A stretch of DNA of 64,000 nt, taken from Dictyostelium discoideum. Its lineage: Eukaryota. The notes beneath the pieces are model-generated. The model did no database searches. It saw only the letters and a list, made by a program, of their open reading frames with translations, and was not told the DNA's origin. The position numbers and the translations under genes were made by a program. Location: positions 2,816,001-2,880,000 of the forward strand of contig CM000155.2 in assembly GCA_000004695.1 (NCBI GenBank), in the 5' to 3' direction. Shown here in pieces: positions 11,581 through 26,392 of the stretch (position 1 is its first letter; every line of letters starts with the position of its first letter).

Positions 11581-11680
11581 NNNNNNNNNNNNNNNNNNNN
11601 NNNNNNNNNNNNNNNNNNNNNNNNNNNNNNNNNNNNNNNNNNNNNNNNNNNNNNNNNNNNNNNNNNNNNNNNNNNNNNNN
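11581..11680. other. Assembly gap (100 N)
   Basis: Run of n. Confidence 1.
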
Positions 11681-12430
11681 TATTAATATTGGCGAAAAAA
11701 AATTCTGATTTGCTTCTTTTTTTTTTTCAAGTGTGTCCCATTTATTTTTTTTTTCTTTTTGGAAGGGAAGTTTTTTTTTCCCAGGCCAAAAAAAAAGTTT
11801 TGGAAAAAAAAAAAGGCTGGAAATTCCCCTTGGAAATTTTTCCAATTGGGGGAAATGTGGAATTAGTTTTTTTTTTTTTTTTTTTTGGGTCCTTTTACCC
11901 CCCAAAAAAAAAAAAAATATTAAAAATTTTTTAAATGGTTTCCCGGTTAATTTTAATAAAAAATAATTGAATTTTTTTTTTTTATTAAATTTTATGGGGA
12001 AAAAAAAAAAAAAATTTTTTTCTGTTCAAAAAAATTAATTAATTAATTAAATTTTAATTAAAAAACCCCCCCCTTTAAATGGTTTTTTAAAAAAAAAAAA
12101 AAAAAGAAGGGAAATCCAATCAAAACAAAACCCCCCCTCAACCCACATTTTTACTCTTTTTTTATGTAATTATAATTTTTTTTAAAAATAAATTTTAAGC
12201 ATATATATATATAACATACCACACATTAATTTTAATTCCATTGATCAATAATATTTTTTATTGATGACGAATAATATGAAAAAAGATGGCATAATTAAAA
12301 CAATATAACAACAAAAAATTATTATTTTTTTTTTATATTTTAATTTAATTTTATTTTATTTTTTTTTATTATATTTTTTATTATTCATTTAATTTTTTTT
12401 TTTTTATTTTATTTTTTTTTTGGGTATTTA

Positions 12431-12462
<32 letters not shown>

Positions 12463-12733
12463 TCAAATTTTTATTTGTCAAATGTCGGAATGAATTATTA
12501 AGGTATTAAATAGTAATAATTTTAATATTGTAATTCTCAATATCTAAACAATTTTATTATTATTTATTTTTTTTTTATAAAAAAAGTTTTATAATTTCTT
12601 TTTTTTTTTTTTTTTTCAAAATAAATTCCTTTGCTATAAAATTTTCCTATTTTTTTATAAAAAAAAATTATTTATTATATCTAAATTAATTTATAGTAAA
12701 CTTTTTTTTTTTATTTTTTTAAAAAAAAAAAAA

Positions 12734-13773
12734 ATGGATCATCAAAAATTAAATTATTTAATTATAATTATTTTATTATTTTTAACTACTTTTATATATT
12801 TTGGAAACTCAAGTCTTTTAAAAATTGAAGATATAAGGGAAAATAATAATTATAATTATATTTTTTATATAAATCCAAATATAGTAAATAATGATAATAA
12901 AATCAATAATAATAATATAAATAAAAATAAATTTTGTGGAATTAATATAAATAATAGTTGTTCAACAATTAGTAGTGCAATAAATTCATTTAAACAACAA
13001 ATTTTAGATGTTAACCATAAATATCAATCATTAACATTATTATTAATGGATGGTATATATAATTTAAATCAAGAAAATGGTTCCGAAATTACCATTATTG
13101 GAATGAATTTAACAATCAAACCTTTTAATTTTAAAAACCCAAATATAATAATAAAGGGTTCAATTAATAATAAAAATAAAAATAATAATCTTTTTACAAT
13201 AATAAATAATAAAGATAATATAAATAGTAATATAAAATTAATAAATTTAAAATTTCAACAAATAAAATCTACAACTTTAATAAATTATCAAATTGATTCA
13301 AATAAAAATAATAATAACGAAAATATAATTATTTTAAATAATATTGAAATTATTGATTCAAATAATATTATAATTGTTTCAAATTTAGTTGGATCAAAAC
13401 TTTTTATATCAGATCTTTATTTAAAAAATAATAGTGATAATAATAATAATAATAATAATTATAATAATTATAATAATTCTTTAATTAATTTACAATCTTC
13501 AAAATTATTTTTAAATAATACCATTTTAGAAAATAACGAGTTTTCAAATTGTATTTATGATAATTCAAATTCAACAATTGAAATTAATAATAATTTTATT
13601 TTAAGTAAAAATAATAATAATAATAATAATAATAATTTCTTATTTTGTAAAACAAGTTGCTTAATTAAAATAAATAAAAATGAAAATGAAAATAATAATT
13701 TAAAACAATTAGTTATCGAATCAACTAAATCAAAAAATTTATCAAAAATTATTATTTGTGATATATCTAAATT

Positions 13774-13812
<39 letters not shown>

Positions 13813-14125
13813 AACAAAAAAACAAGAAGAAGATTATAAATGTGAAATTGAAATTATTTCACCAATTTTAAAAGAAGAAATTATTACTACTGATAAAAAA
13901 AAAAATTATGGTAAGAGTGATGATACTAGTGATGAGTCTAGTGATGGTGGTAATAGTCAAGAAAAACAATTTATGAAATCATTGGAAATATTTGTAGTGT
14001 GTATTGGTTTAATTATTGGTTTTGCAATGATTGTATCAGCAATTTATTATTTAAATAAATGTTATTTAAAATATCATCCTGATTATTATTCAGAATATAA
14101 TTACGATATTATTCCAGATTTATAA
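12734..14125 (+). CDS. Hypothetical Asn-rich type I membrane protein. It has a signal peptide, a poly-Thr stalk and a C-terminal TM helix.
   Basis: 463-codon ORF. N-terminal hydrophobic segment LIIIILLFLTTFIYFG. T12 stretch. C-terminal TM VVCIGLIIGFAMIVSAIYYL. No recognisable catalytic motif. Confidence 0.5.
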
Positions 14126-14402
14126 TAATTATAAAAAAGAAAAAAAAAAAAAAAAAACTTAGAAAAATTAAAATTTAATAAATAAAAAAAAAAAAATTTT
14201 TTTAAAAAAAAAAATATCAGTTTTTTTAATTTAATTTCTTTATCAAAAAAAAAATAATAAAAATTCTTTTTTTTAAAAAAAAAGTAATTAACACGTCACT
14301 TTAAATGACATTATCATTTTTTTTTTTTAAAAAATTTTATTTTTCATTTTTTTTTTTTTTTTTTTTTTTTTTTGGGTTGAAAAAAAAAAAAGGGGTCTTT
14401 AG

Positions 14403-14465
<63 letters not shown>

Positions 14466-14537
14466 TATTTTTTATTAAAAAATAAAAAGAAATAATAATT
14501 AATTTATTTATTTAATTAATAATAATTATAATAATAA

Positions 14538-15647
14538 ATGGAAGAAATAAATGAAGAATATGAAAGAATTAAATCATCAAAAAATAAAGAAGGTAGATTT
14601 AATAATCCATTCGGAGTTAGTGGTGTATTTCCAGGATTTTCAAAAGTAGTTAATAGAATTAAAGAGATACGTAAATTTCCAATCATACCATTAACAGAAG
14701 AAGAGAGAAGAGATATTCATCCATGTTTAAAACCAAATTTTGAATTGATTAAACAAGAATATGATTTTAAAACAACAATAAAATCAACATGGATTGGTCA
14801 TTCGACAGTGATTGTACAACTTGAAGGATTCACATTCTTGACAGACCCAGTTTGGAGTGATAGATGCTCACCATTCACATCGATTGGTCCCAAACGTCAT
14901 ACTGACCCAGCTTGTGCAATCTCTGAATTACCAAAAATTGACTTTGTTTTAATTTCACATACCCACTATGACCATTTAGATTATCAATCAGTTGTTGAAA
15001 TTTATAAATTACAAAAACCAACTTTCTACGTCCCATTAGGTATGAAACAATGGTTTTTAGATGCTGGTATATTTGATGTTTTCGAATTAGATTGGTGGGA
15101 AGAAATTAAATTTATTAAAAATGAAAATGAAAATGAAAATAAAAATGAAAATGAAAATGAAAATAAAAATGAAATAAAATTAATATATACACCAGTTAAT
15201 CATAGTTCACGTAGAGGTTTATTTGATAAAGATAAGGCACTTTGGGGTGGTTGGATAGTTCAAGGTGAATTTAGAAGATTTTGGTTCTCTGGTGATACTG
15301 CATATAATGATAAATTATTTAAAGTTATTGGTCATCATTATGGTCCATTTGATTATAGTTTAATTGCAATTGGTGCCTATGATAGAAATAGAGAAATAAT
15401 GAGAGCAAATCATATCGATCCACAAGAAGCAGTAATGATTCATCGTGAAATTAAAAGTAAACGTTCATTCGGTATACATTGGGGTACTTTTACATTAACA
15501 AATGAACCAATTTTAGAACCTCCACAATTACTATTATCAGAATCAAAAAAACAATCATTAAAAGAAAATGAATTTTTCGTTAGTAAAATTGGTGAAACTT
15601 CAATAATCAGTAATGATTTTAATCAAAATAATAATGATGTAAATTAA
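14538..15647 (+). CDS. NAPE-PLD-like metallo-beta-lactamase fold hydrolase (N-acyl-phosphatidylethanolamine phospholipase D family)
   Basis: HxHxDH metal-binding motif ISHTHYDHLD. N-terminal GRFNNPF. Downstream are conserved His/Asp positions (GDTAY, HWGTF). An (ENENKN)n insert is encoded by a (GAAAAT)n microsatellite. Confidence 0.7.
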   Translation: MEEINEEYERIKSSKNKEGRFNNPFGVSGVFPGFSKVVNRIKEIRKFPIIPLTEEERRDIHPCLKPNFELIKQEYDFKTTIKSTWIGHSTVIVQLEGFTFLTDPVWSDRCSPFTSIGPKRHTDPACAISELPKIDFVLISHTHYDHLDYQSVVEIYKLQKPTFYVPLGMKQWFLDAGIFDVFELDWWEEIKFIKNENENENKNENENENKNEIKLIYTPVNHSSRRGLFDKDKALWGGWIVQGEFRRFWFSGDTAYNDKLFKVIGHHYGPFDYSLIAIGAYDRNREIMRANHIDPQEAVMIHREIKSKRSFGIHWGTFTLTNEPILEPPQLLLSESKKQSLKENEFFVSKIGETSIISNDFNQNNNDVN

Positions 15648-15682
15648 ACATTTTTGTATAATATATATATATTAATAAAATT

Positions 15683-15995
15683 TTATTTAATAATTGTTAA
15701 TAATCTTTTTGGATTATTTATTAAAATATTATTAATATCAGTATCAGAATAACCAAACTTTTTCATTCTTGGTATAATATTGAATAGAATATGAGAATAA
15801 CCATGACCACCATAACTAACCAAACGATGTTTTGTATAAATATCATGAGAGATAACAATATTTTCACCATAACCATGTTTAATTAATTGATAAATCCATT
15901 CAATTCTTTGATTATCTGATGGCATTCCAACTTCACCACCAAATGGATAATGTGAAATTTCCATACCCTATACATATATATAAATTATAATATTA

Positions 15996-16035
<40 letters not shown>

Positions 16036-16887
16036 TGTATAATTATTTTATTAATTATTTACAAATAAATCAAATTCTAAGATACAACCAGTTTTGGCAG
16101 TTTCTAGTAGAATATTAATATCATGAATTGTACGATCAATGTGACCAATGATTACTCTTGATAAGTCTGCACCGGAATCTTTTAGGATTTGGATTATTTC
16201 AAGTGGTGCAGTTTGAGATCTACCTGGGTGGATTGAAATAGAGAGTCCGGTTCTTTGTTGGGCTTTTGCTGATGCAATTAATGACTTTTTTTCATTGTTT
16301 GTTAAGGGAAATGAGCAACCTACTTCCCCGATGATACCTGCTTTAATGGATGTATCATCTATACCTATTAAACATTGTTTAACAATTTCATCTTCCATTT
16401 GTTTTTCAGTCATTGATTGAACAAATTGTGAAATTGATTTATCTAAATAGTATCCTGCACCCATTACAATATTTATATTTAATTCTTGTGATACTTTTAA
16501 ACATTGGAGTGGATCTCTACCTATACCTTTAGTTGTCACTTCAACTATTGTCGAGCCACCATTTCTTTTAAACATTTCTAATTCCCTTATTGCAATTTCC
16601 ATTTCATTTAATTGTAAATTATGTAAATTCTTATTATAATTATATTGTACCCAATGATTATTTATAAGTGATATCTTTTCATTTGATAAATCTTCAATTG
16701 TTTTATTACTATTACTATTACCACTACCACTACCACCACCTAAACAACACATTTTTAATTCTTGTTCATTTGGTTTTTCAAAATAATCCAAATAATTTAT
16801 AAATATATGTTCATGCATATGTGTTATACCTAATTCATCTTTTTCTATTAAACCTTTAATTGTTTGAATTTTACCAATTCTTTCTGT

Positions 16888-16890
<3 letters not shown>
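15683..16890 (-). CDS. Phosphotriesterase-related protein (PTER, amidohydrolase superfamily). Two exons: 16063..16890 and 15683..15967.
   Basis: N-terminal GITHMHEHIF is the PTER metal-binding HxH motif. The downstream exon carries ISHDI and further family motifs. The GTAAAT donor and TATAG acceptor are in phase 0 and join ...EFDLF to GMEISHY.... Confidence 0.75.
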
Positions 16891-16926
<36 letters not shown>

Positions 16927-17282
16927 TATGAGGTATGAAAATTATTAATGCAGGAAAAAAATATAAAAAAATAAAAAATTAATTAATAATTTAAATTTTA
17001 GATGCCCTAAAAAAAAAAAAATAAAAAAATAAAAAAATAAAAAATTAAAAAAAATATCTTACAAATACTTTGTATAAAATTAAATTAGTAAAAATTTGTT
17101 TAAAAAAAAAAAAAAATAAAATAAAATAAAATAAAGAAGAAAATCTTTGGAATCTAATTTTATTATTTTTAATAATTAAAAAAAGGGATTTTTTTTTTTT
17201 TTTTTTATTTTTTAAAGTAAAAAGTTTTTACATTAAAAATTGATTAGATTTTTTAAAGTTGAAATCTTAATTCTATTAAAAT

Positions 17283-17316
<34 letters not shown>

Positions 17317-17625
17317 TTTTGGCTAATTAAATTTTAAATTTTTTTTTATCCGTTAGTTTAAAAAAAAAAAAAAAAAATCTATTTTTTATTTTGCGCGTGT
17401 TTGGATAAAAATATAATTTTAAAAAAACACTTTTTCCACCAAAACAAAAAAAAAAATTTTTTTTTTTTTTATTTTCCACTTTTTTTTTTTTTCATATTCA
17501 TTTTTTTATATATATATATTTTTTTTTTTTTTACTTTATAAGGAGAAACATTTAATTATTATTCTCAATATTAAAAAATAAAATTTTTTAAAAAAAAATA
17601 TAAAAATATAAAAGAATATAAAAAA

Positions 17626-19611
17626 ATGATAAATAATAATAATAATAATTTTAATTATGAAAATAAAGAAAATCAATATAATCATACCCCTGTTAACAGA
17701 AGTAACAGTGGTGGATTTGAAAAATCAACACCATTATCACCATTATCACCTCAACCAATGATGATGTCACCAAAAACCAATGGTTCAACAAAAACACCAT
17801 TATCACCATTATCACCAAATGATAAAATGGTTTTATCACCACCAAAATCAATAAATAATAATAATAAATTAAATTTAATGGGACCACCAAGTGGAATTCC
17901 ATTAAAAAGACCAACTAGTAATTTATTTGAATATGTTTCAAAACAAATTACATCAAATTCTTTAAATTCAACTACTATTGTATTACCAACTTCAACTTCA
18001 AATGAAAATTTAAATTTATATAATAATAATAATAATAATAATGAATTTTCATTTCCAACACCACAAAGTGTACCTTCAACATCAACAACAACAACAACAC
18101 CAACAACATCAAATAATAATACACCAATACCAACACCAACATTATCAAGAAATAATACATTAAATAGAAGATCAGCACAACAACAACAAGCTAACAAAAC
18201 ATTTTCAAAAACTGGTGAAGAAGATTATTTTTCAACTAAAAAAAGAGAAGATAGAAAAAGTACTCAATTACTAAGACAAAGTAGTAAAAGAGATATGTTA
18301 ATTCAAGCTTCAAGACAATTAAATCAAAGATCATCACCACCAAAACAACAACAACAACAACAACAACAATTACAAAAACAACAAGAAGAAGAAGAATTAC
18401 AAAAACAATTAAAACAAATTAATGAAGAACAACAAAAATTATTACAAGAAAAGAAACAACAACAATTACAAGAATTTTTAATTAAAGAAAAGAAAAGAAC
18501 AGAATCTATTAAGGAGGTTTATACATCAGAGTTTGCATATATTGGTCATTTGAATACAGTGATTGATCAATATCTGCTACCATTGCGTAGAGAGTATTCT
18601 GCACCTGAAGAGGTTAGATTAATTGTATCGATCTTTTCAAATATTGAAAGTATTAGATCAATTAATAAATCCATGCTATTGGATAGGGTTGGTGAACGTA
18701 TTAGTAATATTGGTAGTTCGACAAATACAAGTTTAAATGTAATCATCTCTGATCTATTCTTGGCATTGATTCCATCGATTTCAAATATTTACATTGAATA
18801 TTATGTAAACTATTATCGTTCTTTACATAGTTTAGATTATTGGTTCAATAAATGTAAAAAGTTTAAAAAATTCTTGGATCATGATTCAATGATTTTAAAA
18901 TCATTATTAATTATGCCAATTCAACGTATTCCAAGATATTCTCTACTATTGGATGCTATCATTCGTTTTACAAATCCAACTCATCCTGATTTTCAAAATT
19001 TAAATTTGGCTTTAGAAAAAATGAAACAATTAACTGAAATTATTAATGAAAAAATTCGTCATTCTGAATTAATTCAAAGAGTTACAAATATTAGATTTAA
19101 ATTTAATGATACAATTGGTGTAAGTATTTTTTTTTTTTTTTTTAAATTTATATTTTTATTTATATTTAAAATTATTAATAAATAATTTTTTTTTTTTTAA
19201 AGTTTTTGGATCAAACACATAGAATTTTAATTAAAGATAGTGGTGATAATACACTTCAATTACAACCATTTAAATGTGTTAGTATGTATAATAGCAACAA
19301 TAATAATAATAATAATGAAAATTTAATAGAAGAAGAAGATATAAATAGTAAAGAAAGTGATGATTTAACAGATGAAGAAGAATACAATAGTGGTTTAATT
19401 TTAAATACATCTTTTAAAAGATCATTGTCTTCAATTCCTCAACAATCACAAATTAAAAAAAGTTCTAATAATAGTATTTTAAAGAAATCATCATCAATGA
19501 TTACATTAGTACCAAGTGATTGTGTACTTTATTTATTTAATGATACATTATTATTAGGTACAACTTCTCAAAATAATATAAATAATAATAATAATTTAAA
19601 TGAAGATTCAA

Positions 19612-19653
<42 letters not shown>

Positions 19654-20198
19654 GTAATAATAATGGTAATAATAATGGTAATAATAGTAATGGTAATAGT
19701 AATAATAGTAATGGTAATAATAGTAATAATAAATATAATGTTGTTTTAAAATCAAAATTAGTTGAAATTTTTATAAAGGATTATACAAAATTAGCACCAA
19801 CTATATTTTCAATTCACCATAATAGTGGCACTTATTTAATATCTTGTCAAAATATTGAACAACGTGAAACTTGGGTTAAAGCTATTTTAGAGACAATAGA
19901 GAAATTAATTTCACAAGATAATGAATTGGCAATTAGAAGAAGTAAAATCTCTTTAAAAGGTAGTGATGAATATGGTTGGTATGCTTTCGATTCAGAATGT
20001 CAATCTCAAGATGCAAACCTAATTTCACGTTCTCTTCAAGAGTTGGAGAAGAATCAAGTTTTCACTCCAAAGAAACGTAAATCAATGATTGGTAAAGTAA
20101 AACAAAGAATGTCAAGTGCTTTATCTTCTCCTCATAAAAATCAAAATGTAAAAAGAAATTCTTCATTTGTTTTAAATTCATTATGTAATTATGACTAA
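17626..20198 (+). CDS. Rho guanine nucleotide exchange factor with DH and PH domains. Two exons: 17626..19119 and 19203..20198.
   Basis: The DH domain is EVYTSEFAYIGHLNTVIDQYLLPL ... LLIMPIQRIPRYSLLLDAIIRF. A PH-like domain is in exon 2. The GTAAGT donor is at 19120 and the TTTAAAG acceptor at 19202, phase 0. Poly-Q/poly-N tracts are present. Confidence 0.75.
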
Positions 20199-20204
20199 AA
20201 TCTA

Positions 20205-20242
20205 AAAAAAAAAAGAAAAAGAAAAAGAAAAAGAAAAAGAAA

Positions 20243-20274
<32 letters not shown>

Positions 20275-20340
20275 AAAAGAAAAAAGGAAAGAAAAGGAAA
20301 GGAAAAGAAAGGAAATCAAAAAAAAAAAAAAAAAAATCAC
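20205..20340. repeat. (AAAAAG)n / purine-rich microsatellite in the RhoGEF 3' UTR
   Basis: Direct observation. Confidence 0.9.
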
Positions 20341-20471
20341 CTTTGAAATCATTTTAAAAAAAAAAAAATAAGAAACAAATTTACAAAAAAAAAAAATTAA
20401 CCAAATTTAATATTTTTGGTTAAATATATATAATTAATTTAAGAATAAAAAAAGTTAATTCTTTTTTTCAA

Positions 20472-20790
20472 AATAATGCAACTTCACTAAGGTTTTTTTT
20501 TTTTTTTTTTTTGAATTGGATAACGCAATTATTAGTTGCTTCTCCTTGAGTTTAAAATTTTTAACTCTATTAAAATGAGAAAAAGTAGGAGAAGCAGGTA
20601 TCGATTGCATTTTCCTTTTAAATAAAGGGAGAAAAAAAGTGACGCCATTCTTATTAAAATAGTTTATTGACAAGTAAACATTAAATCATAATCATTTAAA
20701 ATAATAGTTAATGCAACTTCACTAAGGTTCTTTTTTTTTTTTTTTGAATTAATTATTAGTTGCTTCTCCTTGAGATATAATTTTTTAACT
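20472..20790 (-). mobile_element. Two tandem 3'-terminal fragments (about 235 bp each) of a TRE-type tRNA-targeted non-LTR retrotransposon. Each is a C-module-like tail ending in oligo(A) on the minus strand. They lie about 80 bp upstream of tRNA-Leu.
   Basis: The motif TGCAACTTCACTAAGGTT-T(15-19)-GAATTGG(ATAACGCA)ATTATTAGTTGCTTCTCCTTGAG is seen twice here. It recurs at 21841, 22862 and 24131. On the minus strand it reads ...CTCAAGGAGAAGCAA...CCAATTC-A(n), i.e. the element's 3' end. Confidence 0.6.
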
Positions 20791-20862
20791 TTTTTTTTGA
20801 ATGAAGTAACGCAAATATAATTTTTTAACTTATTGTTCTATTAAAATTATAATTTCAAAAAA

Positions 20863-20944
20863 GTAAGCTTGCCCGAGCTGGTCTAAGGGGTTGCATTAAG
20901 GCTGCAATATCATTGATACAAGGGTTCGAATCCCTTAGCTTACA
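20863..20944 (+). tRNA. tRNA-Leu (anticodon AAG), type II with a long variable arm
   Basis: It folds by hand. Acceptor GTAAGCT/AGCTTAC. A 3-bp D stem with a GAGCTGGTCTAA loop. Anticodon stem TTGCA/TGCAA with loop TTAAGGC (AAG, G37). Variable stem-loop TATCATTGATA. T arm AAGGG-TTCGAAT-CCCTT. Discriminator A. Confidence 0.85.
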
Positions 20945-20974
20945 ATATGTTTAACAAATGAAACTTAAAGTCGT

Positions 20975-20985
20975 GTGTTCGATTC
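20975..20985 (+). promoter_or_regulatory. External B-box (ex-B, GTGTTCGATTC) about 30 bp downstream of tRNA-Leu
   Basis: It matches the TFIIIC B-box consensus GGTTCGANTCC outside the tRNA body. Extra downstream B boxes are a known feature of Dictyostelium tRNA genes. Confidence 0.55.
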
Positions 20986-21585
20986 TATCTAAAGATTAGA
21001 AAGGTCTTTGAGCAAAGAGAAAAAAGTTTTTAAGTTTACATTCAGGAAGGCCACAAATTATCAAGAATCCAATAGATTGATTCAACCCATTGTAGTCTCC
21101 TTACCAGTCATATAATCAACAACAGTTTCATAATTTATTTTATCAATTTAATTCAATTAAAATACTGGTTAGAATTTAATTTCAGTCAAAATCCAAATTG
21201 GTTACTTTATTTTCAAATTACTAAATTCAAATTAATATATAGTTAATTTAAATAAACTCATTTTTATAAAATAGAATTAAAACCATTATATACTTCAGTT
21301 AATTTATAATTCAATTAATTTATTAAATAAATATATAAACAAACAAATAAATAAAAAACAAATAAATAAAAAACAAATAAATAAAAAACAAATATAATAA
21401 ATAAATAAAAAAATAAATAAATAAATAAATAAATAAAAAAATAAAAAAATAAACAAATAAATAAATAAATAAGTAAAGTTTAATTAAATATATTAATAAA
21501 AAAAAAAAAGAAAAAAATATTAAAAAAGATTCAACCAACCACTTCTGCTGCATAATCATGTAGTAAACAAAAAAACCATCAGCAT

Positions 21586-21640
21586 GTCAGGTTGGCTGAG
21601 TTGGTAGAGTGTAGGCCTCATAATCCTAAGGTAGAGCCCA
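21586..21640 (+). pseudogene. Truncated tRNA-Met(CAT) pseudogene. It covers only the 5' two-thirds and has D-stem mismatches. It was duplicated together with about 10 bp of 5' flank from the copy at 24201.
   Basis: GTCAGGTTGGCTGAGTTGGTAGAGTGTAGGCCTCATAATCCTAAGGT aligns to the intact gene but diverges after position 47. The upstream CCATCAGCATG matches CCATCAACATG upstream of the intact copy. Confidence 0.6.
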
Positions 21641-21825
21641 TTTTTCCAATTTTAACCTATAAATAATAATTAGGCCACTCAATTAAATAAAAATAGAAAA
21701 AATAATTGACACACATTTAAGATATGTTAGTGAAAGTCTGTTTCATTATAAAAGAAATATCACTTTATTTTTTTTGAATTGGAAAAGGCAATTATAATTA
21801 GTTACAAAGTTAAAAAAAAATCCCT

Positions 21826-21956
21826 TTTTTTTTTTTTTTTTTTTTTTTTTTGAATTGGATAACGCAATTATTATTTGCTTCTCCTTGAGATGCTAGATCT
21901 CATTTTATTTTATTTTTTTTTTTTTTTACAGGGTCTCTAAAAGAGGGGTTGGTTTA

Positions 21957-21987
<31 letters not shown>

Positions 21988-22286
21988 GGTTCCGAATTTT
22001 GAATTGTATTATTACTTTTGATTAAAACATCTTTTTTTGTCCAAACTTTTTTCTAAATCTTTTTTTATTTTATGGGCTGGTTCGGGATTGATGTTTATGA
22101 CGTATTTGAATTGTTTTTTTTTTAATTGAGTTTTATCCACAATTTCCCTTTTTTTTTGAGGCCATTTGGGTTGCTTAATATTTGGGGGGGTGGTTGGGAT
22201 TTTCCATTTTATTTTCTTTCTATCTTTTTTATTTTTCTTTAAAAAGTTAAAAATCTGGAAATTTTTTGATTAACTTGGGTTCCCAG

Positions 22287-22353
<67 letters not shown>

Positions 22354-22860
22354 TTATAGAAAGTACTGAGTGAATTATTGTATTTTTTGAGATGTTTAGG
22401 AAGTTCTATTGCGTGAAGAGGTGAGTTCCATTGTCTGCTAAATTGTAATAGCTTTAGCGAGATTAGTGAGTCTAATTTATTTTGTTCTTCTGGCCGTTGC
22501 TTTGATTTGATTCTTAATGTTTTGTTTATAACCGCTTGTGTCCTGTCCCATGCAGCTCTTTGTGTTTTAATTAGTTCACGTATGACTTGTTGTCTGTGAA
22601 TTATTATTTCTTTTTCATCGTGAATGAGTTTATTTCTTTTGTGCCAGATTTTATCGAATATAATAGCTATTAAATTGGCTACTAGTGCAATTTGTAGATG
22701 GTTTAAAATCTTCACATTCCAGGTGTGAGTGGTGTGTCCACACTTAGTTAGGGTGTAGTTGAAGATTTCTTGTGTGTTTTTGATGTGGGCTTTGCAGTTG
22801 AAGAATATATGTTCTGAGGTCTCATCTTCCCCACAAATTTTAATTACAAAACTTTTTTTT
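21826..22860 (-). mobile_element. 5'-truncated TRE-type non-LTR retrotransposon copy A. It has an ORF2 C-terminal fragment with the CX2CX7HX4C zinc knuckle, an A-rich tract, a C-module and an oligo(A) tail.
   Basis: Minus-strand ORF 22350..22715 is near-identical to the C-terminal 121 aa of copy B. Upstream it reads ...CGEDETSEHIFFNCKAHIKNTQ, then a poly(A) run (plus 22270-22349 poly-T), then C-module sequence shared with 22900-23100. The oligo(A) end is at 21826-21847. Confidence 0.65.
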
Positions 22861-22861
22861 T

Positions 22862-23256
22862 TGAATTGGATAACGCAATTATTATTTGCTTCTCCTTGAG
22901 ATGCTAGATCTCATTTTATTTTTTTTTTTTTTTTACAGGGTCTTTTTGATTAAAACATCTTTTTTGTCCAAACTTTTTTCTAAATCTTTTTTTATTTTAT
23001 CGTCTGGTTCGTGATTGATGTTTATGACGTATTTGAATTGTTTTTTTTTTTTTTTAATTGAGTTTTATCCACAATTTCGCTTATTTTTTGTAGGCACCTG
23101 TGCTGCTTAATATTTGTGGTGTTCCAATTGCATCAACAAACCATTATCTGTNNNNNNNNNNNNNNNNNNNNNNNNNNNNNNNNNNNNNNNNNNNNNNNNN
23201 NNNNNNNNNNNNNNNNNNNNNNNNNNNNNNNNNNNNNNNNNNNNNNNNNNNTTTTT

Positions 23257-23316
<60 letters not shown>

Positions 23317-24068
23317 TTATAGAAAGTACTGAGTGAATTATTGTATTTTTTGAGATGTTTAGGAAGTTCTATTGCGTGAAGAGGTGAGTTCCATTGTCTG
23401 CTAAATTGTAATAGCTTTAGCGAGATTAGTGAGTCTAATTTATTTTGTTCTTCTGGCCGTTGCTTTGATTTGATTCTTAATGTTTTGTTTATAACCGCTT
23501 GTGTCCTGTCCCAAGCAGCTCTTTGTGTTTTAATTAGTTCACGTATGACTTGTTGTCTGTGAATTATTATTTCTTTTTCATCGTGAATGAGTTTATTTCT
23601 TTTGTACCAGATTTTTTCGAATATAATAGCTATTAAATTGGCTACTAGTGCAATTTGTAGATGGTTTAAAATCTTCACATTCCAGGTGTGAGTGGTGTGT
23701 CCACACTTAGTTAGGGTGTAGTTGAAGATTTCTTGTGTGTTTTTGATGTGGGCTTTGCAGTTGAAGAATATATGTTCTGAAGTCTCATCTTCCCCACACT
23801 GTTGGCATGGCATGTTGTATATTTTTGGTAGTGCTTTCAGTGTGTATCTCCATAATAGATCTCTACCTTTCATGTTTATTATTTTTTTGATTTCTTTAAA
23901 TGGAAGGTGTTTGCTATTAATTTTGGTCATTATTTCTTTTTGGCCAGGAGTTGGTATGAATTTGTTGTGTTCAGGAGATTGAGTTGTCATCATATCCTCG
24001 TATATTTTTTTTAATTTTGGGAGGTGTTCGTAGTGTGTTTGTTTATTTTGTGGAGTTTTTAATTGGGT
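22862..24068 (-). mobile_element. TRE-type non-LTR retrotransposon copy B (ORF2 3' portion of 226 codons, then internal poly(A), then a C-module). It contains assembly gap 23152..23251 and abuts copy A head-to-tail.
   Basis: ORF 23313..23993 ends with the retrotransposon ORF2 C-terminal zinc knuckle CQQCGEDETSEHIFFNC. It is followed on the minus strand by A(50), the gap, a C-module of about 190 bp and the oligo(A) motif shared with copy A. Confidence 0.65.
23152..23251. other. Assembly gap (100 N) inside the retroelement repeat
   Basis: Run of n. Confidence 1.
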
Positions 24069-24082
24069 CTAAAAAAAATCCC

Positions 24083-24095
<13 letters not shown>

Positions 24096-24117
<22 letters not shown>

Positions 24118-24121
24118 AATT

Positions 24122-24167
<46 letters not shown>

Positions 24168-24173
24168 GATCAA
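24096..24173. mobile_element. Minimal (extremely 5'-truncated) retroelement tail insertion, T30-GAATTGGT-A43, flanked by the direct target-site duplication AAAATCCCGAT. It lies about 40 bp upstream of tRNA-Met.
   Basis: AAAAAAAATCCCGAT occurs immediately left of the T-run (24092-24106) and again right of the A-run (24155-24169). The internal GAATTGG is the terminal heptamer of the TRE tail motif. Confidence 0.55.
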
Positions 24174-24200
24174 GCAGTAAAAAACAAAATTCCATCAACA

Positions 24201-24274
24201 TGTCAGGTTGGCTCAGTTGGTAGAGCGTAGGTCTCATAATCCTAAGGTCCAGAGTTCGATCCTCTGACTTGACA
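24201..24274 (+). tRNA. tRNA-Met (anticodon CAT, elongator-like) with an apparent extra C in the anticodon arm
   Basis: Acceptor GTCAGGT/ACTTGAC. D arm GCTC-AGTTGGTA-GAGC. Anticodon region TAGGT-CTCATAA(T)-CCCTA. T arm CAGAG-TTCGATC-CTCTG. Discriminator A. A T-run follows. It is 74 nt because of one extra nucleotide relative to the canonical 7-nt loop. Confidence 0.7.
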
Positions 24275-24391
24275 CTTTTTAAAATCCACAAATGACGATT
24301 AGTAATTAAAAAAAAAACACATTACACCGCTTTTAGGTAAAAAAAAAAAAAAACAAAACAAACACATAAATCAAAAATTTTTGTAAAATTC

Positions 24392-24462
24392 GCCGTGATA
24401 GTATAGTGGTAGTACATCAGATTGTGGCTCTGTTGACCCTGGTTCGATTCCAGGTCGCGGCA
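24392..24462 (+). tRNA. tRNA-His (anticodon GTG)
   Basis: GCCGTGATAGTATAGTGGTAGTAC... closely resembles metazoan tRNA-His. Acceptor GCCGTGA/TCGCGGC. Anticodon loop TTGTGGC. 4-nt variable loop. T arm CCTGG-TTCGATT-CCAGG. Discriminator A. No encoded G-1, as in eukaryotes. Confidence 0.85.
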
Positions 24463-24463
24463 C

Positions 24464-24469
24464 TTTTTT
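24464..24469 (+). terminator. Pol III terminator T-run downstream of tRNA-His
   Basis: TTTTTT immediately after the discriminator base. Confidence 0.6.
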
Positions 24470-24629
24470 AGATACTTTACGAAGTTCGGTTTGTTAAAAC
24501 CGAAAATAAAAATAAAATAAAATAAAATATAAAAACAATTTTTCGTTTTTCGAAAAATCAGTTTTACGTTTTTATACTTTCGCAAACAAATAATACTTTC
24601 ATTGTTTTAAATTATCTCTTTCATTAAAT

Positions 24630-24686
24630 AATGTGGTATTGTTAAATTTAACAATACCACATTATTTGGACCAATGGTTCGATTCC
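24630..24686. other. Perfect 34-nt palindrome (AATGTGGTATTGTTAAAT/ATTTAACAATACCACATT) followed by an orphan consensus B-box/T-arm (AATGG-TTCGATT-CCATT)
   Basis: Reverse-complement identity was checked by eye. GGTTCGATTCC at 24676-24686 matches the B-box consensus, but no intact tRNA cloverleaf can be folded around it. Confidence 0.5.
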
Positions 24687-25032
24687 CATTTTTGAAAGTA
24701 CAAACATCCAATTAAAAATGTGGGCTATTGTGATTGGGTGAATATTTTTTTTCTGAGATACGTGGTTGAATGATGAATTCCTCTGAAGTTTATAGCTTTT
24801 GTGGAACAAAATAGGTGAAAAACTCTCATTCTCAAATGGCACAAAACATAATATTGAAAATAAAAAAAACACAATTAACCAAAAAAAAGTTTAAAAAAAA
24901 AAAAAAAAAAAAAAAGGTATCTTTATAGAGTTTTATAATTTAAAAAAAACCCATAATATCTTTTTTATTTAAAAGAATTTTTTTTTTTTTAAATTAATAA
25001 AAGTACAAATTATAAATACAATATAAATTTTA

Positions 25033-26064
25033 TTAATCGGAAAGAAAAGAAACATCACAATAATAACGTTTACATCCATAAGGTCTTTCCGAAAATGAAA
25101 ATAATTTATAACCTTTAGGGCATAAAGGAGTTGGAATATCATTACATTTTTCATAATTTAATTTGCCATCATTTTTAATATTATTATTTATACAACCACT
25201 AAAATATAAACATCTTGAATAATCTCGATGGAATGTTGGTAATAATATTGAATGATTTTGATTTTCAAAAGAAGAATTAGTTTTATCCTGACTATTATCT
25301 TCTTGATCACTACTACATATATTACTAATATTAAAATCTAAACAATTATTTGAATCAATTAATGGAATATTAATATAAATTTTAGTGATTTGAAAGTTTT
25401 TATTATTTTGATCCATAAATCCAAAGCTAATTGTTTTTGAATTTGTAATAACATTATTTAACCAACCGATATCTAAATTGTAAATTGATTTACTATACAT
25501 TTCTGTAAAATTCATTAATTGAAATTGATAATTTAAATTTAATGATTTAGCAATAAATGGATAAAATTGATTATTTTTATTTTTATTATTTTTATTACTA
25601 TTAGATGAATATAAATTATCAATAAAATTAAAAATTCCAGAATTTTGATTATTATTTTCATTTATAGTTAGATATTGATATTTTCTATTAAATAATTGTG
25701 GACCATATAATTTTTCACCACCATTGGTATAAATTAAACGTGTTGCATTGTAAACTTGAAAATAATTAAATTTTGGATAAGATCTTATTAATCCACCCAA
25801 AATTAAATCATCTGTAAAGGCCAATGTAATTAATGACATATTAAAATTTACAATTGATGGGTCCAATGATATTGAAGAAACATAAACTGCACTCATCCCA
25901 ACATTTACTCTTTGTAACCAATAACCACCACATTTTGGAAATTCACAATCTCTATCATCCAATTTTACTTTATAAAATATAAAATCTTTTTCTGATAATC
26001 CATTTATTAATTTTAAATTTAAAAAAAATAAAATTAATTTTAAAATTATTATTTTTTTTAACAT
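25033..26064 (-). CDS. Hypothetical secreted Cys-containing protein (343 aa) with a signal peptide
   Basis: Single ORF. N-terminal signal MLKKIIILKLILFFLNLKLING. Asn-rich. C-terminal Cys cluster (CPKGYKLFSFSERPYGCKRYYC). Confidence 0.5.
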   Translation of the reverse strand: MLKKIIILKLILFFLNLKLINGLSEKDFIFYKVKLDDRDCEFPKCGGYWLQRVNVGMSAVYVSSISLDPSIVNFNMSLITLAFTDDLILGGLIRSYPKFNYFQVYNATRLIYTNGGEKLYGPQLFNRKYQYLTINENNNQNSGIFNFIDNLYSSNSNKNNKNKNNQFYPFIAKSLNLNYQFQLMNFTEMYSKSIYNLDIGWLNNVITNSKTISFGFMDQNNKNFQITKIYINIPLIDSNNCLDFNISNICSSDQEDNSQDKTNSSFENQNHSILLPTFHRDYSRCLYFSGCINNNIKNDGKLNYEKCNDIPTPLCPKGYKLFSFSERPYGCKRYYCDVSFLSD

Positions 26065-26292
26065 TTTATTTTTATATTTATTTAAACTTTTTTTTTTTTT
26101 TTTTAAAAGTTATATTACAATTTATAAAAAATGTTTTTAAATTTGTTTTTTTTATTATTTTGTATTTTTAAAAAATTAAATAAATAAAATAAATAAATAA
26201 AAAAAATAAATAAAAAAAATAAATAAATAAATTATTTTGATTTAAAATATTTTATCATTATTTAATTCAAATTAAATATGGCTTAAGGATTA

Positions 26293-26392
26293 NNNNNNNN
26301 NNNNNNNNNNNNNNNNNNNNNNNNNNNNNNNNNNNNNNNNNNNNNNNNNNNNNNNNNNNNNNNNNNNNNNNNNNNNNNNNNNNNNNNNNNNN
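26293..26392. other. Assembly gap (100 N)
   Basis: Run of n. Confidence 1.

What the first reader, a model, noticed from the sequence alone, without database searches (positions are those of the whole stretch)
20450..24480. tRNA gene cluster serving as a landing pad for nested, 5'-truncated TRE-type retrotransposons. A target-site duplication brackets a minimal tail-only insert 40 bp upstream of tRNA-Met.
Three tRNA genes (Leu-AAG, Met-CAT, His-GTG) and a truncated Met duplicate are interspersed with at least five copies of the same retroelement 3'-terminal motif, all in minus orientation. Two larger copies, A and B, are arranged head-to-tail, with copy A's truncated ORF2 directly abutting copy B's oligo(A). 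About 40 bp upstream of tRNA-Met, a T30-GAATTGGT-A43 insert is flanked by the direct repeat AAAATCCCGAT. That is a clean signature of position-specific integration with extreme 5' truncation. The tRNA-Met pseudogene shares about 10 bp of 5' flank with the intact gene, suggesting duplication mediated by the elements.
Basis: partly seen in the sequence, partly recalled or inferred. Interest (0 to 1): 0.5.

Follow-up and report, generated by a model that had tools for sequence, protein, structure and literature searches.

The report
TRE5-A retrotransposon pile-up at tRNA genes
This is an ordinary Dictyostelium tRNA gene cluster hit repeatedly by the known retrotransposon TRE5-A at its usual spot about 47 bp upstream of tRNA genes; the striking head-to-tail pair of larger copies is most likely an assembly error in a gap-ridden reference scaffold.

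Summary
The window is Dictyostelium discoideum AX4 chromosome 6. The three tRNA genes, the truncated tRNA-Met copy and the repeated minus-strand 3'-terminal motif are all present as described. The element is TRE5-A (not TRE3). It has the layout ORF2 3' end, internal A-run, B-module, C-module, oligo(A). Element 5' ends lie 46-48 nt upstream of tRNA-Met or tRNA-Leu and face the tRNA, with 13-17 bp target-site duplications.

An independent, gap-free assembly of a near-identical strain (GCA_054883475.1) has only one 1,247-bp 5'-truncated TRE5-A at this locus. That copy is flanked by the duplication TAAAAAAAA(A)TCCC, which in the window brackets copies A and B together. The extra middle piece has three warning signs. 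It borders a 100-N gap. It is joined through about 300 bp of low-quality sequence. Its ORF2 part is identical to a TRE5-A copy on another chromosome. The tandem is therefore probably a chimeric assembly.

The minimal insert is really T31-GAATTGGT-A31 with a 15-bp duplication, 46 nt upstream of tRNA-Met. The other assembly shows a clean empty site, so the insert is probably a recent abortive TRE5-A event in the AX4 lineage. Three older tail-only inserts (16, 29/38 and 30 nt) occur in both assemblies. This is known biology with a modest curiosity.

The parts
20863..20944 (+). tRNA-Leu(AAG), a target gene. B box at 20923. An extra B-box-like TGTTCGATTCT lies at 20976.
24202..24275 (+). tRNA-Met(CAT), a target gene. 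A box at 24209, B box at 24253.
24392..24463 (+). tRNA-His(GTG). No element lies upstream of it.
21565..21632 (+). Truncated tRNA-Met copy (tRNA part from 21586) plus about 21 bp of related 5' flank. A box kept, B box lost. Present in both assemblies.
   Evidence: (D17)
20493..20550 (-). Distal TRE5-A tail: 38 nt of C-module end plus A20. It shares flanks on both sides with the next copy, so the two are a segmental duplicate of one insertion.
20731..20774 (-). Proximal TRE5-A tail (29 nt, with an internal 9-nt deletion, plus A15). Its 5' end lay 48 nt from tRNA-Leu before the next insertion.
20775..20831 (-). Tail-only insert T7-GAATGAAGTAACGCAA (20792-20814) flanked by the 17-bp target-site duplication ATATAATTTTTTAACTT (20775-20791 and 20815-20831). 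Its 5' end is 48 nt from tRNA-Leu. Present in both assemblies.
21768..21805 (-). Old, diverged 30-nt C-module tail plus A8. It lay about 52-53 nt upstream of tRNA-Met before the large element arrived. Present in both assemblies.
21811..21824 (.). Left copy of the target-site duplication TAAAAAAAAATCCC of the single true element (E1). The right copy is at 24070-24082.
   Evidence: (D19)
21825..22351 (-). 3' part of E1 ('copy A' left part): oligo(A)27, C-module, full B-module (TRE5-A.1 type) and internal A-run. Positions 21988-22322 carry 20 differences from L002, half of them window G against L002 T, which looks like low-quality base calls.
22352..22835 (-). ORF2 3' end of 'copy A', 5'-truncated at TGTGGGG. 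It is 100% identical to a TRE5-A copy on another chromosome (L001) and has 4 mismatches to this locus's element in L002. Probably foreign to this locus.
22836..22852 (.). 17-nt spacer AATTTTAATTACAAAAC. Probably a target-site remnant from another tRNA locus.
22853..23151 (-). 'Copy B' left part: A10, C-module and B-module with the ~72-bp BC deletion typical of TRE5-A.2. It ends at the gap with 30 nt of non-canonical sequence.
   Evidence: PMC3159450
23152..23251 (.). 100-N scaffold gap.
23252..24069 (-). 'Copy B' right part, which is the 5' portion of E1: internal A-run and ORF2 3' end (251 codons, Cys-rich C-terminus). Positions 23282-24085 are 100% identical to L002. The 5' end lies 47 nt from tRNA-Met once the 85-bp insert plus duplication is removed.
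24070..24082 (.). Right copy of the E1 target-site duplication TAAAAAAAATCCC.
24071..24170 (-). Minimal insert T31-GAATTGGT-A31 (24086-24155) between 15-bp direct repeats AAAAAAAATCCCGAT (24071-24085 and 24156-24170). Its 5' end is 46 nt from tRNA-Met. Absent (clean empty site) in L002.

Best explanation
The region is a Dictyostelium discoideum (AX4, chromosome 6) tRNA gene cluster that the non-LTR retrotransposon TRE5-A has targeted repeatedly. TRE5-A recognises the RNA polymerase III transcription complex on a tRNA gene and integrates by target-primed reverse transcription about 47 bp upstream. Its 5' end faces the tRNA, it makes a 10-16 bp target-site duplication, and it is often 5'-truncated. 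Each new insertion lands between the tRNA and the previous copy, so older copies are pushed outward.

At tRNA-Met the real history is an old 30-nt tail, then one 1.25-kb 5'-truncated TRE5-A.1-type copy (E1). In the AX4 lineage only, there is also an abortive event that left 7-8 nt of the C-module end plus homopolymer arms (T31-GAATTGGT-A31) with a 15-bp duplication. At tRNA-Leu the history is a 29/38-nt tail (later duplicated segmentally), then a 16-nt tail with a 17-bp duplication.

The apparent head-to-tail pair 'copy A / copy B' is E1 split in two by foreign TRE5-A sequence. That sequence is an ORF2 end truncated at TGTGGGG, a 17-nt spacer and a TRE5-A.2-type 3' end. It was pulled in from another locus by repeat-induced mis-assembly and joined across a scaffold gap.

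Shown: family identity, positions, orientations, duplications, and absence of the tandem and of the minimal insert in an independent assembly. Inferred: mis-assembly as the cause, and the abortive or snap-back origin of the minimal insert.
For: Organism:
- The ORF2 fragment is 99-100% identical to D. discoideum proteins.
- The neighbouring gene is DDB_G0293402 of AX4, on a 3.60-Mb contig.

Family:
- The canonical layout ORF2 stop, A-run, B-module, C-module, oligo(A) is seen in an independent copy (L001). It matches copy A column by column.
- The published TRE5-A primer Rep-108 (PMC4559204) hits the B-module at 22075-22101 and 23001-23028 with 2 edits.
- The four C-module nucleotides mutated in PMC3159450 (T15, C26, A35, C38, counted from the 3' end) all match the tail read.
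- The last 54 nt fold with z = -3.1.
- Copy-B-left has the ~72-bp BC deletion described for TRE5-A.2.

Position and orientation:
- There are 47, 46, 48 and 48 nt between element 5' ends and tRNA nucleotide 1. The published primary site is 47 +/- 3 with strict orientation, and published duplications are 10-16 bp.
- Other loci give 46 nt (L001) and 48 nt (L005).

Mis-assembly:
- L002 has a single 1,247-bp element with TAAAAAAAA(A)TCCC on both sides.
- The flanks are identical.
- Copy-B-right is 100% identical to L002, while copy A's ORF2 part has 4 mismatches to L002 and is 100% identical to L001.
- Twenty differences, mostly G for T, cluster at 21988-22322. The same error type sits next to the gap at 26280-26287.
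- There are six 100-N gaps in the window.
- The segment 11681-26292 is flipped relative to L002 exactly at gaps and relative to the gene order in two other species.

A genuine stacked pair with proper duplications exists at another locus (L006), which shows what a real tandem looks like.
Against: - The strain behind GCA_054883475.1 could not be identified. The tandem could therefore be a true AX4-specific structure, for example from ectopic recombination.
- The source locus of the 17-nt spacer was not found in any fetched locus.
- That assembly differs from the window at many homopolymer lengths, usually shorter, so one of the two assemblies has errors there.
- No read-level data were available.
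- The origin of the A31 arm of the minimal insert is unexplained.
- Pfam found no domain in the ORF2 fragment, so family assignment rests on DNA structure, primers and position rather than on a consensus alignment.
Confidence: 0.75

Rival explanations
1. The tandem is real in AX4. After E1 inserted, a second TRE5-A-containing segment entered E1, by ectopic recombination or gene conversion with another stacked TRE5-A locus or by a non-canonical insertion. This would give two head-to-tail copies in the AX4 lineage only.
For: - Stacked head-to-tail TRE5-A pairs do exist in this genome. L006 has one, even with an older copy truncated within 2 nt of the same point as copy A.
- TRE5-A is active in laboratory strains.
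- The comparison strain is unidentified.
Against: - The junction lies about 1.3 kb from tRNA-Met, far outside the 47 +/- 3 bp window.
- The spacer does not match the tRNA-Met target site, and the only matching duplication brackets A and B together.
- The join coincides with low-quality sequence and an N gap.
- The neighbouring scaffold piece is demonstrably mis-oriented.
Confidence: 0.15
2. The T31-GAATTGGT-A31 insert is a cloning or assembly artefact of the reference rather than a retrotransposition event.
For: - It is absent from the independent assembly.
- It lies in a poorly assembled scaffold.
- The two homopolymer arms are exactly equal and would form a 31-bp hairpin, an odd structure for a retrotransposon copy.
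Against: - It has a perfect 15-bp direct (not inverted) duplication of the target.
- It has the right orientation and the exact TRE5-A 3'-terminal heptamer next to the T-run.
- It sits 46 nt upstream of the tRNA.
- The other assembly shows exactly one copy of the duplicated 15-mer, a textbook empty site.
- Two independent chimeric clones breaking at the same nucleotide would be needed to fake this.
Confidence: 0.35
3. The elements belong to TRE3 or another tRNA-associated family rather than TRE5-A. Alternatively, some of the short diverged tails belong to TRE5-C.
For: - TRE5-C also ends in a C-module, 78% identical to that of TRE5-A.
- The 16-nt tail (GAATGAAGTAACGCAA) differs from TRE5-A at 3 of 16 positions, and the 30-nt tail at 3 of the 24 positions searched.
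Against: - All copies lie upstream of tRNA genes with the 5' end facing the gene. That is the TRE5 arrangement, not the TRE3 one.
- The ORF2 fragment gave no hit (E < 1e-3) in L005 outside that locus's TRE5-A copy. L005 also holds an RVT_1-bearing 959-aa gene whose 3' end faces the 3' end of tRNA-Phe about 170 bp away, which I read as TRE3-type.
- The 38-nt tails differ from TRE5-A at one base, a variant also seen in a bona fide TRE5-A copy (L006).
Confidence: 0.05
4. The truncated tRNA-Met copy was created by the retroelements. Possible routes are 5' transduction or element-mediated recombination.
For: - It shares about 21 bp of 5' flank with the intact gene.
- It sits among TRE5-A fragments.
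Against: - No TRE5-A sequence adjoins it at the spacing expected for a 5'-transduced segment.
- Its divergence (88% identity) and its presence in both assemblies indicate an old duplication.
- The break point is not at an element junction.
Confidence: 0.1

Closest known systems
TRE5-A (formerly DRE), the tRNA gene-targeted non-LTR retrotransposon of Dictyostelium discoideum; variants TRE5-A.1 and TRE5-A.2
   Same: - 3' architecture ORF2, B-module, C-module, oligo(A).
- C-module terminal sequence and hairpin.
- Integration 46-48 nt upstream of tRNA genes with the 5' end facing the gene.
- 13-17 bp target-site duplications.
- 5' truncation.
- The ~72-bp BC deletion of the A.2 variant in one piece.
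   Different: Nothing in the elements themselves differs. Three things are unusual:
- How short four of the copies are (7-38 nt of element).
- The T31/A31 arms of the AX4-only insert.
- One 17-bp duplication, which is one base longer than the published 10-16 bp range.
Stacked TRE5-A insertions at one tRNA gene (new copy landing 'above' an existing one; PMC9012585, and L006 here)
   Same: Successive insertions at the same -47 site push older copies outward in head-to-tail order. This is seen here at tRNA-Leu (29-nt tail, then 16-nt tail) and at tRNA-Met (30-nt tail, then E1, then the minimal insert).
   Different: The conspicuous copy A / copy B pair does not obey the stacking rule. The spacer is not the tRNA-Met target sequence, and the duplication encloses both copies.
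Extreme 5' truncation, twin priming and snap-back products of LINE-type target-primed reverse transcription (described for human L1; recalled from general knowledge, not tested here)
   Same: A target-site duplication encloses a very short 3' end plus a poly(A)-derived tract. An inverted tract lies at the 5' junction.
   Different: In classical twin priming the inverted segment comes from upstream element sequence, not from the poly(A) tail. Here the inverted arm is a pure A-tract of exactly the same length as the T-tract.

Membership tests
TRE5-A | Integration about 47 +/- 3 bp upstream of a tRNA gene | tested here: met
   There are 47 nt (E1), 46 nt (minimal insert), 48 nt (16-nt tail) and 48 nt (29-nt tail) between the element 5' end and tRNA nucleotide 1. 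Published value.
TRE5-A | [quoted passage not shown] | tested here: met
   All tails and E1 are on the minus strand, upstream of plus-strand tRNA genes. The rule is quoted.
TRE5-A | 3' structure ORF2, B-module, C-module (about 134-137 bp), oligo(A) | tested here: met
   Four-way alignment of copy A, copy B-left, L002 E1 and L001. Structure as described in PMC3159450.
TRE5-A | C-module 3'-terminal stem-loop; nucleotides T15, C26, A35 and C38 from the 3' end | tested here: met
   All four nucleotides match the tail sequence read. The 54-nt fold gives -11.3 kcal/mol, z = -3.1.
TRE5-A | Match to published TRE5-A-specific sequence | tested here: met
   Primer Rep-108 (PMC4559204) matches the B-module with 2 edits at two sites. 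ORF2 primers Rep-75 and Rep-176 lie outside the truncated copies and gave no hit.
TRE5-A | Target-site duplication of 10-16 bp | tested here: met
   13-14 bp (E1), 15 bp (minimal insert) and 17 bp (16-nt tail, one base over the range). 12 bp in L001. Published range.
TRE5-A | ORF2 with endonuclease, reverse transcriptase and zinc-finger domains | tested here: inconclusive
   Only the C-terminal 251 codons are present. They include a Cys/His-rich motif. Pfam gave no hit. A source names homologues 'Reverse transcriptase z...' (name cut off in the output).
TRE5-A | Alignment to the curated consensus (Repbase or dictyBase) | not testable with these tools
   No Dictyostelium repeat library or reference genome was searchable by DNA.
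TRE5-A.2 (for piece 22853-23151) | 72-bp deletion in the BC region leaving about 87 bp of C-module | tested here: met
   A 79-column deletion relative to the three TRE5-A.1-type copies (the deleted stretch holds a length-variable A-run). About 81 nt remain 3' of it in this copy and about 85 nt in the TRE5-A.1-type copies. The same deletion is seen in the TRE5-A.2 of L006.
TRE3 (A-D) | Integration about 100 bp downstream of tRNA genes with the 3' end facing the gene | tested here: not met
   All copies lie upstream of functional tRNA genes at -46 to -53. The ORF2 fragment gave no hit (E < 1e-3) in L005 outside that locus's TRE5-A copy, although L005 also holds an RVT_1-bearing element positioned like a TRE3.
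TRE5-C (for the diverged 16-nt and 30-nt tails) | C-module about 78% identical to that of TRE5-A | not testable with these tools
   No TRE5-C sequence was available. The divergence of these two tails is compatible with either old TRE5-A or TRE5-C.

The most novel reading that the evidence does not exclude
The AX4-only T31-GAATTGGT-A31 insert is a genuine, very recent product of abortive TRE5-A target-primed reverse transcription. The reverse transcriptase copied the poly(A) tail and only 7-8 nt of the C-module. It then used its own T-tract as template (snap-back), giving equal arms. Together with the 16-, 29/38- and 30-nt tails at the same sites, this would indicate that 'dead-on-arrival' tail-only events are a frequent, overlooked outcome of TRE5-A integration that can be dated within laboratory strain history.
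Probability: 0.3. Interest if true: 0.35.

Novelty: already known. Interest (0 to 1): 0.15.

Why it matters
Biologically it adds little. Repeated TRE5-A targeting of tRNA genes is textbook for Dictyostelium.

Its practical value is for curation:
- This stretch of the AX4 chromosome 6 reference appears to contain a chimeric TRE5-A duplication.
- It also contains a scaffold piece (11681-26292) in the wrong orientation.
- About 1.1 kb of a gene is missing in a gap.

Anyone counting TRE copies, mapping new integrations or designing knock-ins here would be misled. The minimal insert, if confirmed in AX4 DNA, would be a neat natural example of abortive target-primed reverse transcription and a lineage marker for AX4.

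Tried and rejected
- A Pfam scan of the ORF2 fragment and of the 372-aa homologue gave no family.
- An Rfam scan of 20000-25000 found only the three tRNAs. The pseudogene was not detected.
- I tried to look up the AX4 gene model DDB_G0276495. It is not on record.
- I looked for empty sites in other species. The D. dimigraforme and D. firmibasis loci keep the gene order and tRNA-Leu. Their intergenic DNA is too diverged, and it has no C-module motif.
- I searched for the source locus of the 17-nt spacer, and of the odd 30 nt at the contig end, in all fetched loci. Neither was found.
- I tried to identify the strain or paper behind GCA_054883475.1. Nothing was found.
- I considered that the reference had collapsed a full-length new TRE5-A at the minimal-insert site. 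I rejected this because the A-module 5' end (L006) does not resemble GAATTGGT-A(n).
- I considered an inverted chimeric clone as the origin of the insert. I rejected this because the flanking repeats are direct, not inverted.
- My initial idea was that 'X' (the tail) and 'Y' (the ORF2 end with a long A-run) were two different families. I rejected it once L001 showed them to be contiguous parts of one element.

Full report
**What is in the sequence**

ARAGORN and Rfam both find three plus-strand tRNA genes:
- tRNA-Leu(AAG) at 20863-20944
- tRNA-Met(CAT) at 24202-24275
- tRNA-His(GTG) at 24392-24463

A truncated copy of tRNA-Met begins at 21586. With about 21 bp of 5' flank it is 88% identical to the intact gene (family D17). 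It keeps the A box but lacks the B box.

The 24-mer TTGAATTGGATAACGCAATTATTA occurs four times with up to 3 mismatches against 0 expected. The adjoining 20-mer also occurs four times. Shorter versions lie at 20746, 20799 and 24117. All point the same way: oligo(A) on the left as a T-run, element 5' end on the right, towards the tRNA genes.

**Which organism and which element**

- The 251-codon reading frame at 23313-24068 (minus strand) is 99-100% identical to D. discoideum proteins.
- The neighbouring gene is 100% identical to DDB_G0293402 of strain AX4, on a 3.60-Mb contig. The window is therefore AX4 chromosome 6.
- An independent copy of the element in another assembly (L001) shows that the 'ORF2 end with a long A-run' and the 'tail motif' are one element. 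Its order is ORF2 stop, A-run, about 290 bp, about 135 bp, oligo(A).
- This is the AB-ORF1/ORF2-BC architecture published for TRE5-A (PMC3159450).

Three further checks agree:
- The published TRE5-A primer Rep-108 (PMC4559204) hits the B-module twice.
- The four C-module nucleotides mutated in PMC3159450 (T15, C26, A35, C38 from the 3' end) are exactly those in the tail.
- The terminal 54 nt fold better than all 200 shuffles.

The piece at 22853-23151 carries the ~72-bp BC deletion that defines the TRE5-A.2 variant.

TRE3 is excluded for two reasons. All copies lie upstream of tRNA genes. The ORF2 fragment also gave no hit in L005 outside that locus's TRE5-A copy, although L005 holds an RVT_1-bearing element positioned like a TRE3.

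**Positions**

The number of nucleotides between an element's 5' end and the first tRNA nucleotide is as follows:

| Element | Target | Distance (nt) |
|---|---|---|
| Large copy (E1), after removing the later 85-bp insert plus duplication | tRNA-Met | 47 |
| Minimal insert | tRNA-Met | 46 |
| 16-nt tail | tRNA-Leu | 48 |
| 29-nt tail, before the 16-nt tail arrived | tRNA-Leu | 48 |
| Old 30-nt tail | tRNA-Met | about 52-53 |

The literature gives 47 +/- 3 bp as the primary site, strict orientation, duplications of 10-16 bp, frequent 5' deletions and extra nucleotides at the 5' junction. Other loci fetched here give 46 nt (L001) and 48 nt (L005). The 'landing pad' reading is correct, and the family is TRE5-A.

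**The head-to-tail pair does not survive comparison**

The downstream gene led to the same locus in an independent assembly, GCA_054883475.1 (L002). Its flanks are essentially identical to the window. There are no differences over window 17323-21987, which is full of microsatellites. There is only one 3-nt homopolymer difference over 24156-26279.

In that assembly there is one TRE5-A of 1,247 bp. It is flanked by TAAAAAAAAATCCC on the left and TAAAAAAAATCCC on the right, and its 5' end lies 47 nt from tRNA-Met. In the window these two repeat copies sit at 21811-21824 and 24070-24082. They enclose copy A and copy B together (D19).

- The right part of copy B (23282-24085) is 100% identical to the single element of L002.
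- The ORF2 part of copy A (22352-22835) has four mismatches to L002, at 22551, 22643, 22653 and 22818. It is 100% identical to the TRE5-A copy on another chromosome.
- The stretch joining the true 3' end to this foreign ORF2 part (21988-22322) contains 20 differences from L002. Half are G where L002, L001 and copy B all have T. The same error type is seen beside the gap at 26280-26287.
- The left part of copy B is of the TRE5-A.2 type, while the true element is of the A.1 type. It ends at the 100-N gap with 30 nt that match no other B-module.
- The 17-nt spacer AATTTTAATTACAAAAC between the copies is unrelated to the tRNA-Met target site.

A genuine stacked pair at another tRNA gene (L006) shows the proper pattern. 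There a TRE5-A.2 is bracketed by its own duplication, with an older copy pushed outward.

The window's middle piece has that architecture but belongs to no such pattern here. The simplest account is a repeat-induced chimeric contig plus a scaffold gap. A real AX4-specific rearrangement cannot be excluded without reads; I give it about 15%.

**The scaffold is unreliable in general**

The window has six 100-N gaps. The segment 11681-26292, which contains the whole finding, is inverted relative to L002, with both breakpoints exactly at gaps. D. dimigraforme and D. firmibasis share the L002 gene order. About 1.1 kb present in L002 (8682-9772) is missing from the window at the gap at 11581.

**The minimal insert**

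Its true anatomy is a 15-bp direct repeat AAAAAAAATCCCGAT (24071-24085 and 24156-24170) around T31-GAATTGGT-A31.

- L002 has a single copy of the 15-mer and nothing else, which is a textbook empty site.
- The direct duplication, the exact 3'-terminal heptamer next to the T-run, the correct orientation and the position 46 nt from the tRNA all argue for a real target-primed event with almost immediate termination.
- Faking this would need two chimeric clones breaking at the same base.
- TRE5-A is active in laboratory strains, so an AX4-lineage-specific event is plausible.

The A31 arm is not explained by simple truncation. The arms are exactly equal if the duplication is taken at its maximal 15 bp. 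That suggests the reverse transcriptase switched to its own T-tract as template (snap-back) before joining to the A8 of the target. This is inference only, and Sanger homopolymer lengths are uncertain. I rate the insert about 60-65% real.

- Upstream of tRNA-Leu there is a second, cleaner tail-only insert. It is T7-GAATGAAGTAACGCAA, flanked by the 17-bp repeat ATATAATTTTTTAACTT, with the right repeat starting 48 nt before the tRNA. It is present in both assemblies.
- The two 38/29-nt tails at 20493-20550 and 20731-20774 share 20 bp beyond the oligo(A) and about 25 bp beyond the truncation point. They are therefore one insertion duplicated segmentally, not two events.
- The tRNA-Met pseudogene is old (88% identity), is present in both assemblies, and is not joined to any element end. 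Nothing links its origin to the retroelements.

**Verdict**

This is a known system: TRE5-A stacking at tRNA genes. The most eye-catching feature is probably an assembly artefact. One small, possibly real curiosity remains: the T31/A31 tail-only insert, along with several other very short tails. Interest is low. The main value is for curating this part of the AX4 reference.

Noticed in passing
window 11681-26292 (gaps at 11581-11680 and 26293-26392): This whole segment is inverted relative to the independent assembly L002, with breakpoints exactly at the N gaps. D. dimigraforme (L003) and D. firmibasis (L004) share the L002 gene order (Peptidase_M8, UPF0020, 531-aa gene, DDB_G0293402). This is probably a mis-oriented scaffold piece in the reference.
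   Followed up: partly
window gap 11581-11680; L002 8682-9772: About 1.1 kb present in L002 is missing from the window at this gap. It includes the 3' end of the 531-aa gene that starts before 11580.
   Followed up: partly
window 11681-11800, 26280-26287, 21988-22322: Sequence next to gaps, and inside copy A's B-module, shows clustered G or C calls where the other assembly has T or A. This looks like low-quality read ends built into the consensus.
   Followed up: partly
L006 10263-10310 versus window 22826-22852: At an unrelated tRNA-Thr locus, an older TRE5-A copy is 5'-truncated within 2 nt of the same point (TGTGGGGAAGATGAG) as copy A and is likewise followed by a TRE5-A.2 3' end. The spacer and several bases differ. 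This could be a truncation hot spot or related duplicated loci.
   Followed up: no
L005 10620-10670; L007 12230-12271: Other TRE5-A 3' ends carry internal deletions that join B-module or C-module sequence directly to ...TTATCCAATTC at short AATTG-type microhomologies.
   Followed up: no
window 20976-20986 and 24676-24686: Isolated B-box-like motifs lie downstream of tRNA genes. TGTTCGATTCT is 32 bp after tRNA-Leu, and GGTTCGATTCC is about 210 bp after tRNA-His. They resemble the external B boxes I recall as known for Dictyostelium tRNA genes.
   Followed up: no
window 24086-24155: The T and A arms of the minimal insert are both exactly 31 nt when the 15-bp duplication is assigned maximally. 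That would give a perfect 31-bp hairpin with the loop GAATTGGT. No standard truncation model explains this.
   Followed up: partly
L006 7905-8200: The TRE5-A.2 at tRNA-Thr has a partially duplicated A-module and a long A-run at the A/B junction. It resembles the A-run between ORF2 and the 3' B-module.
   Followed up: no
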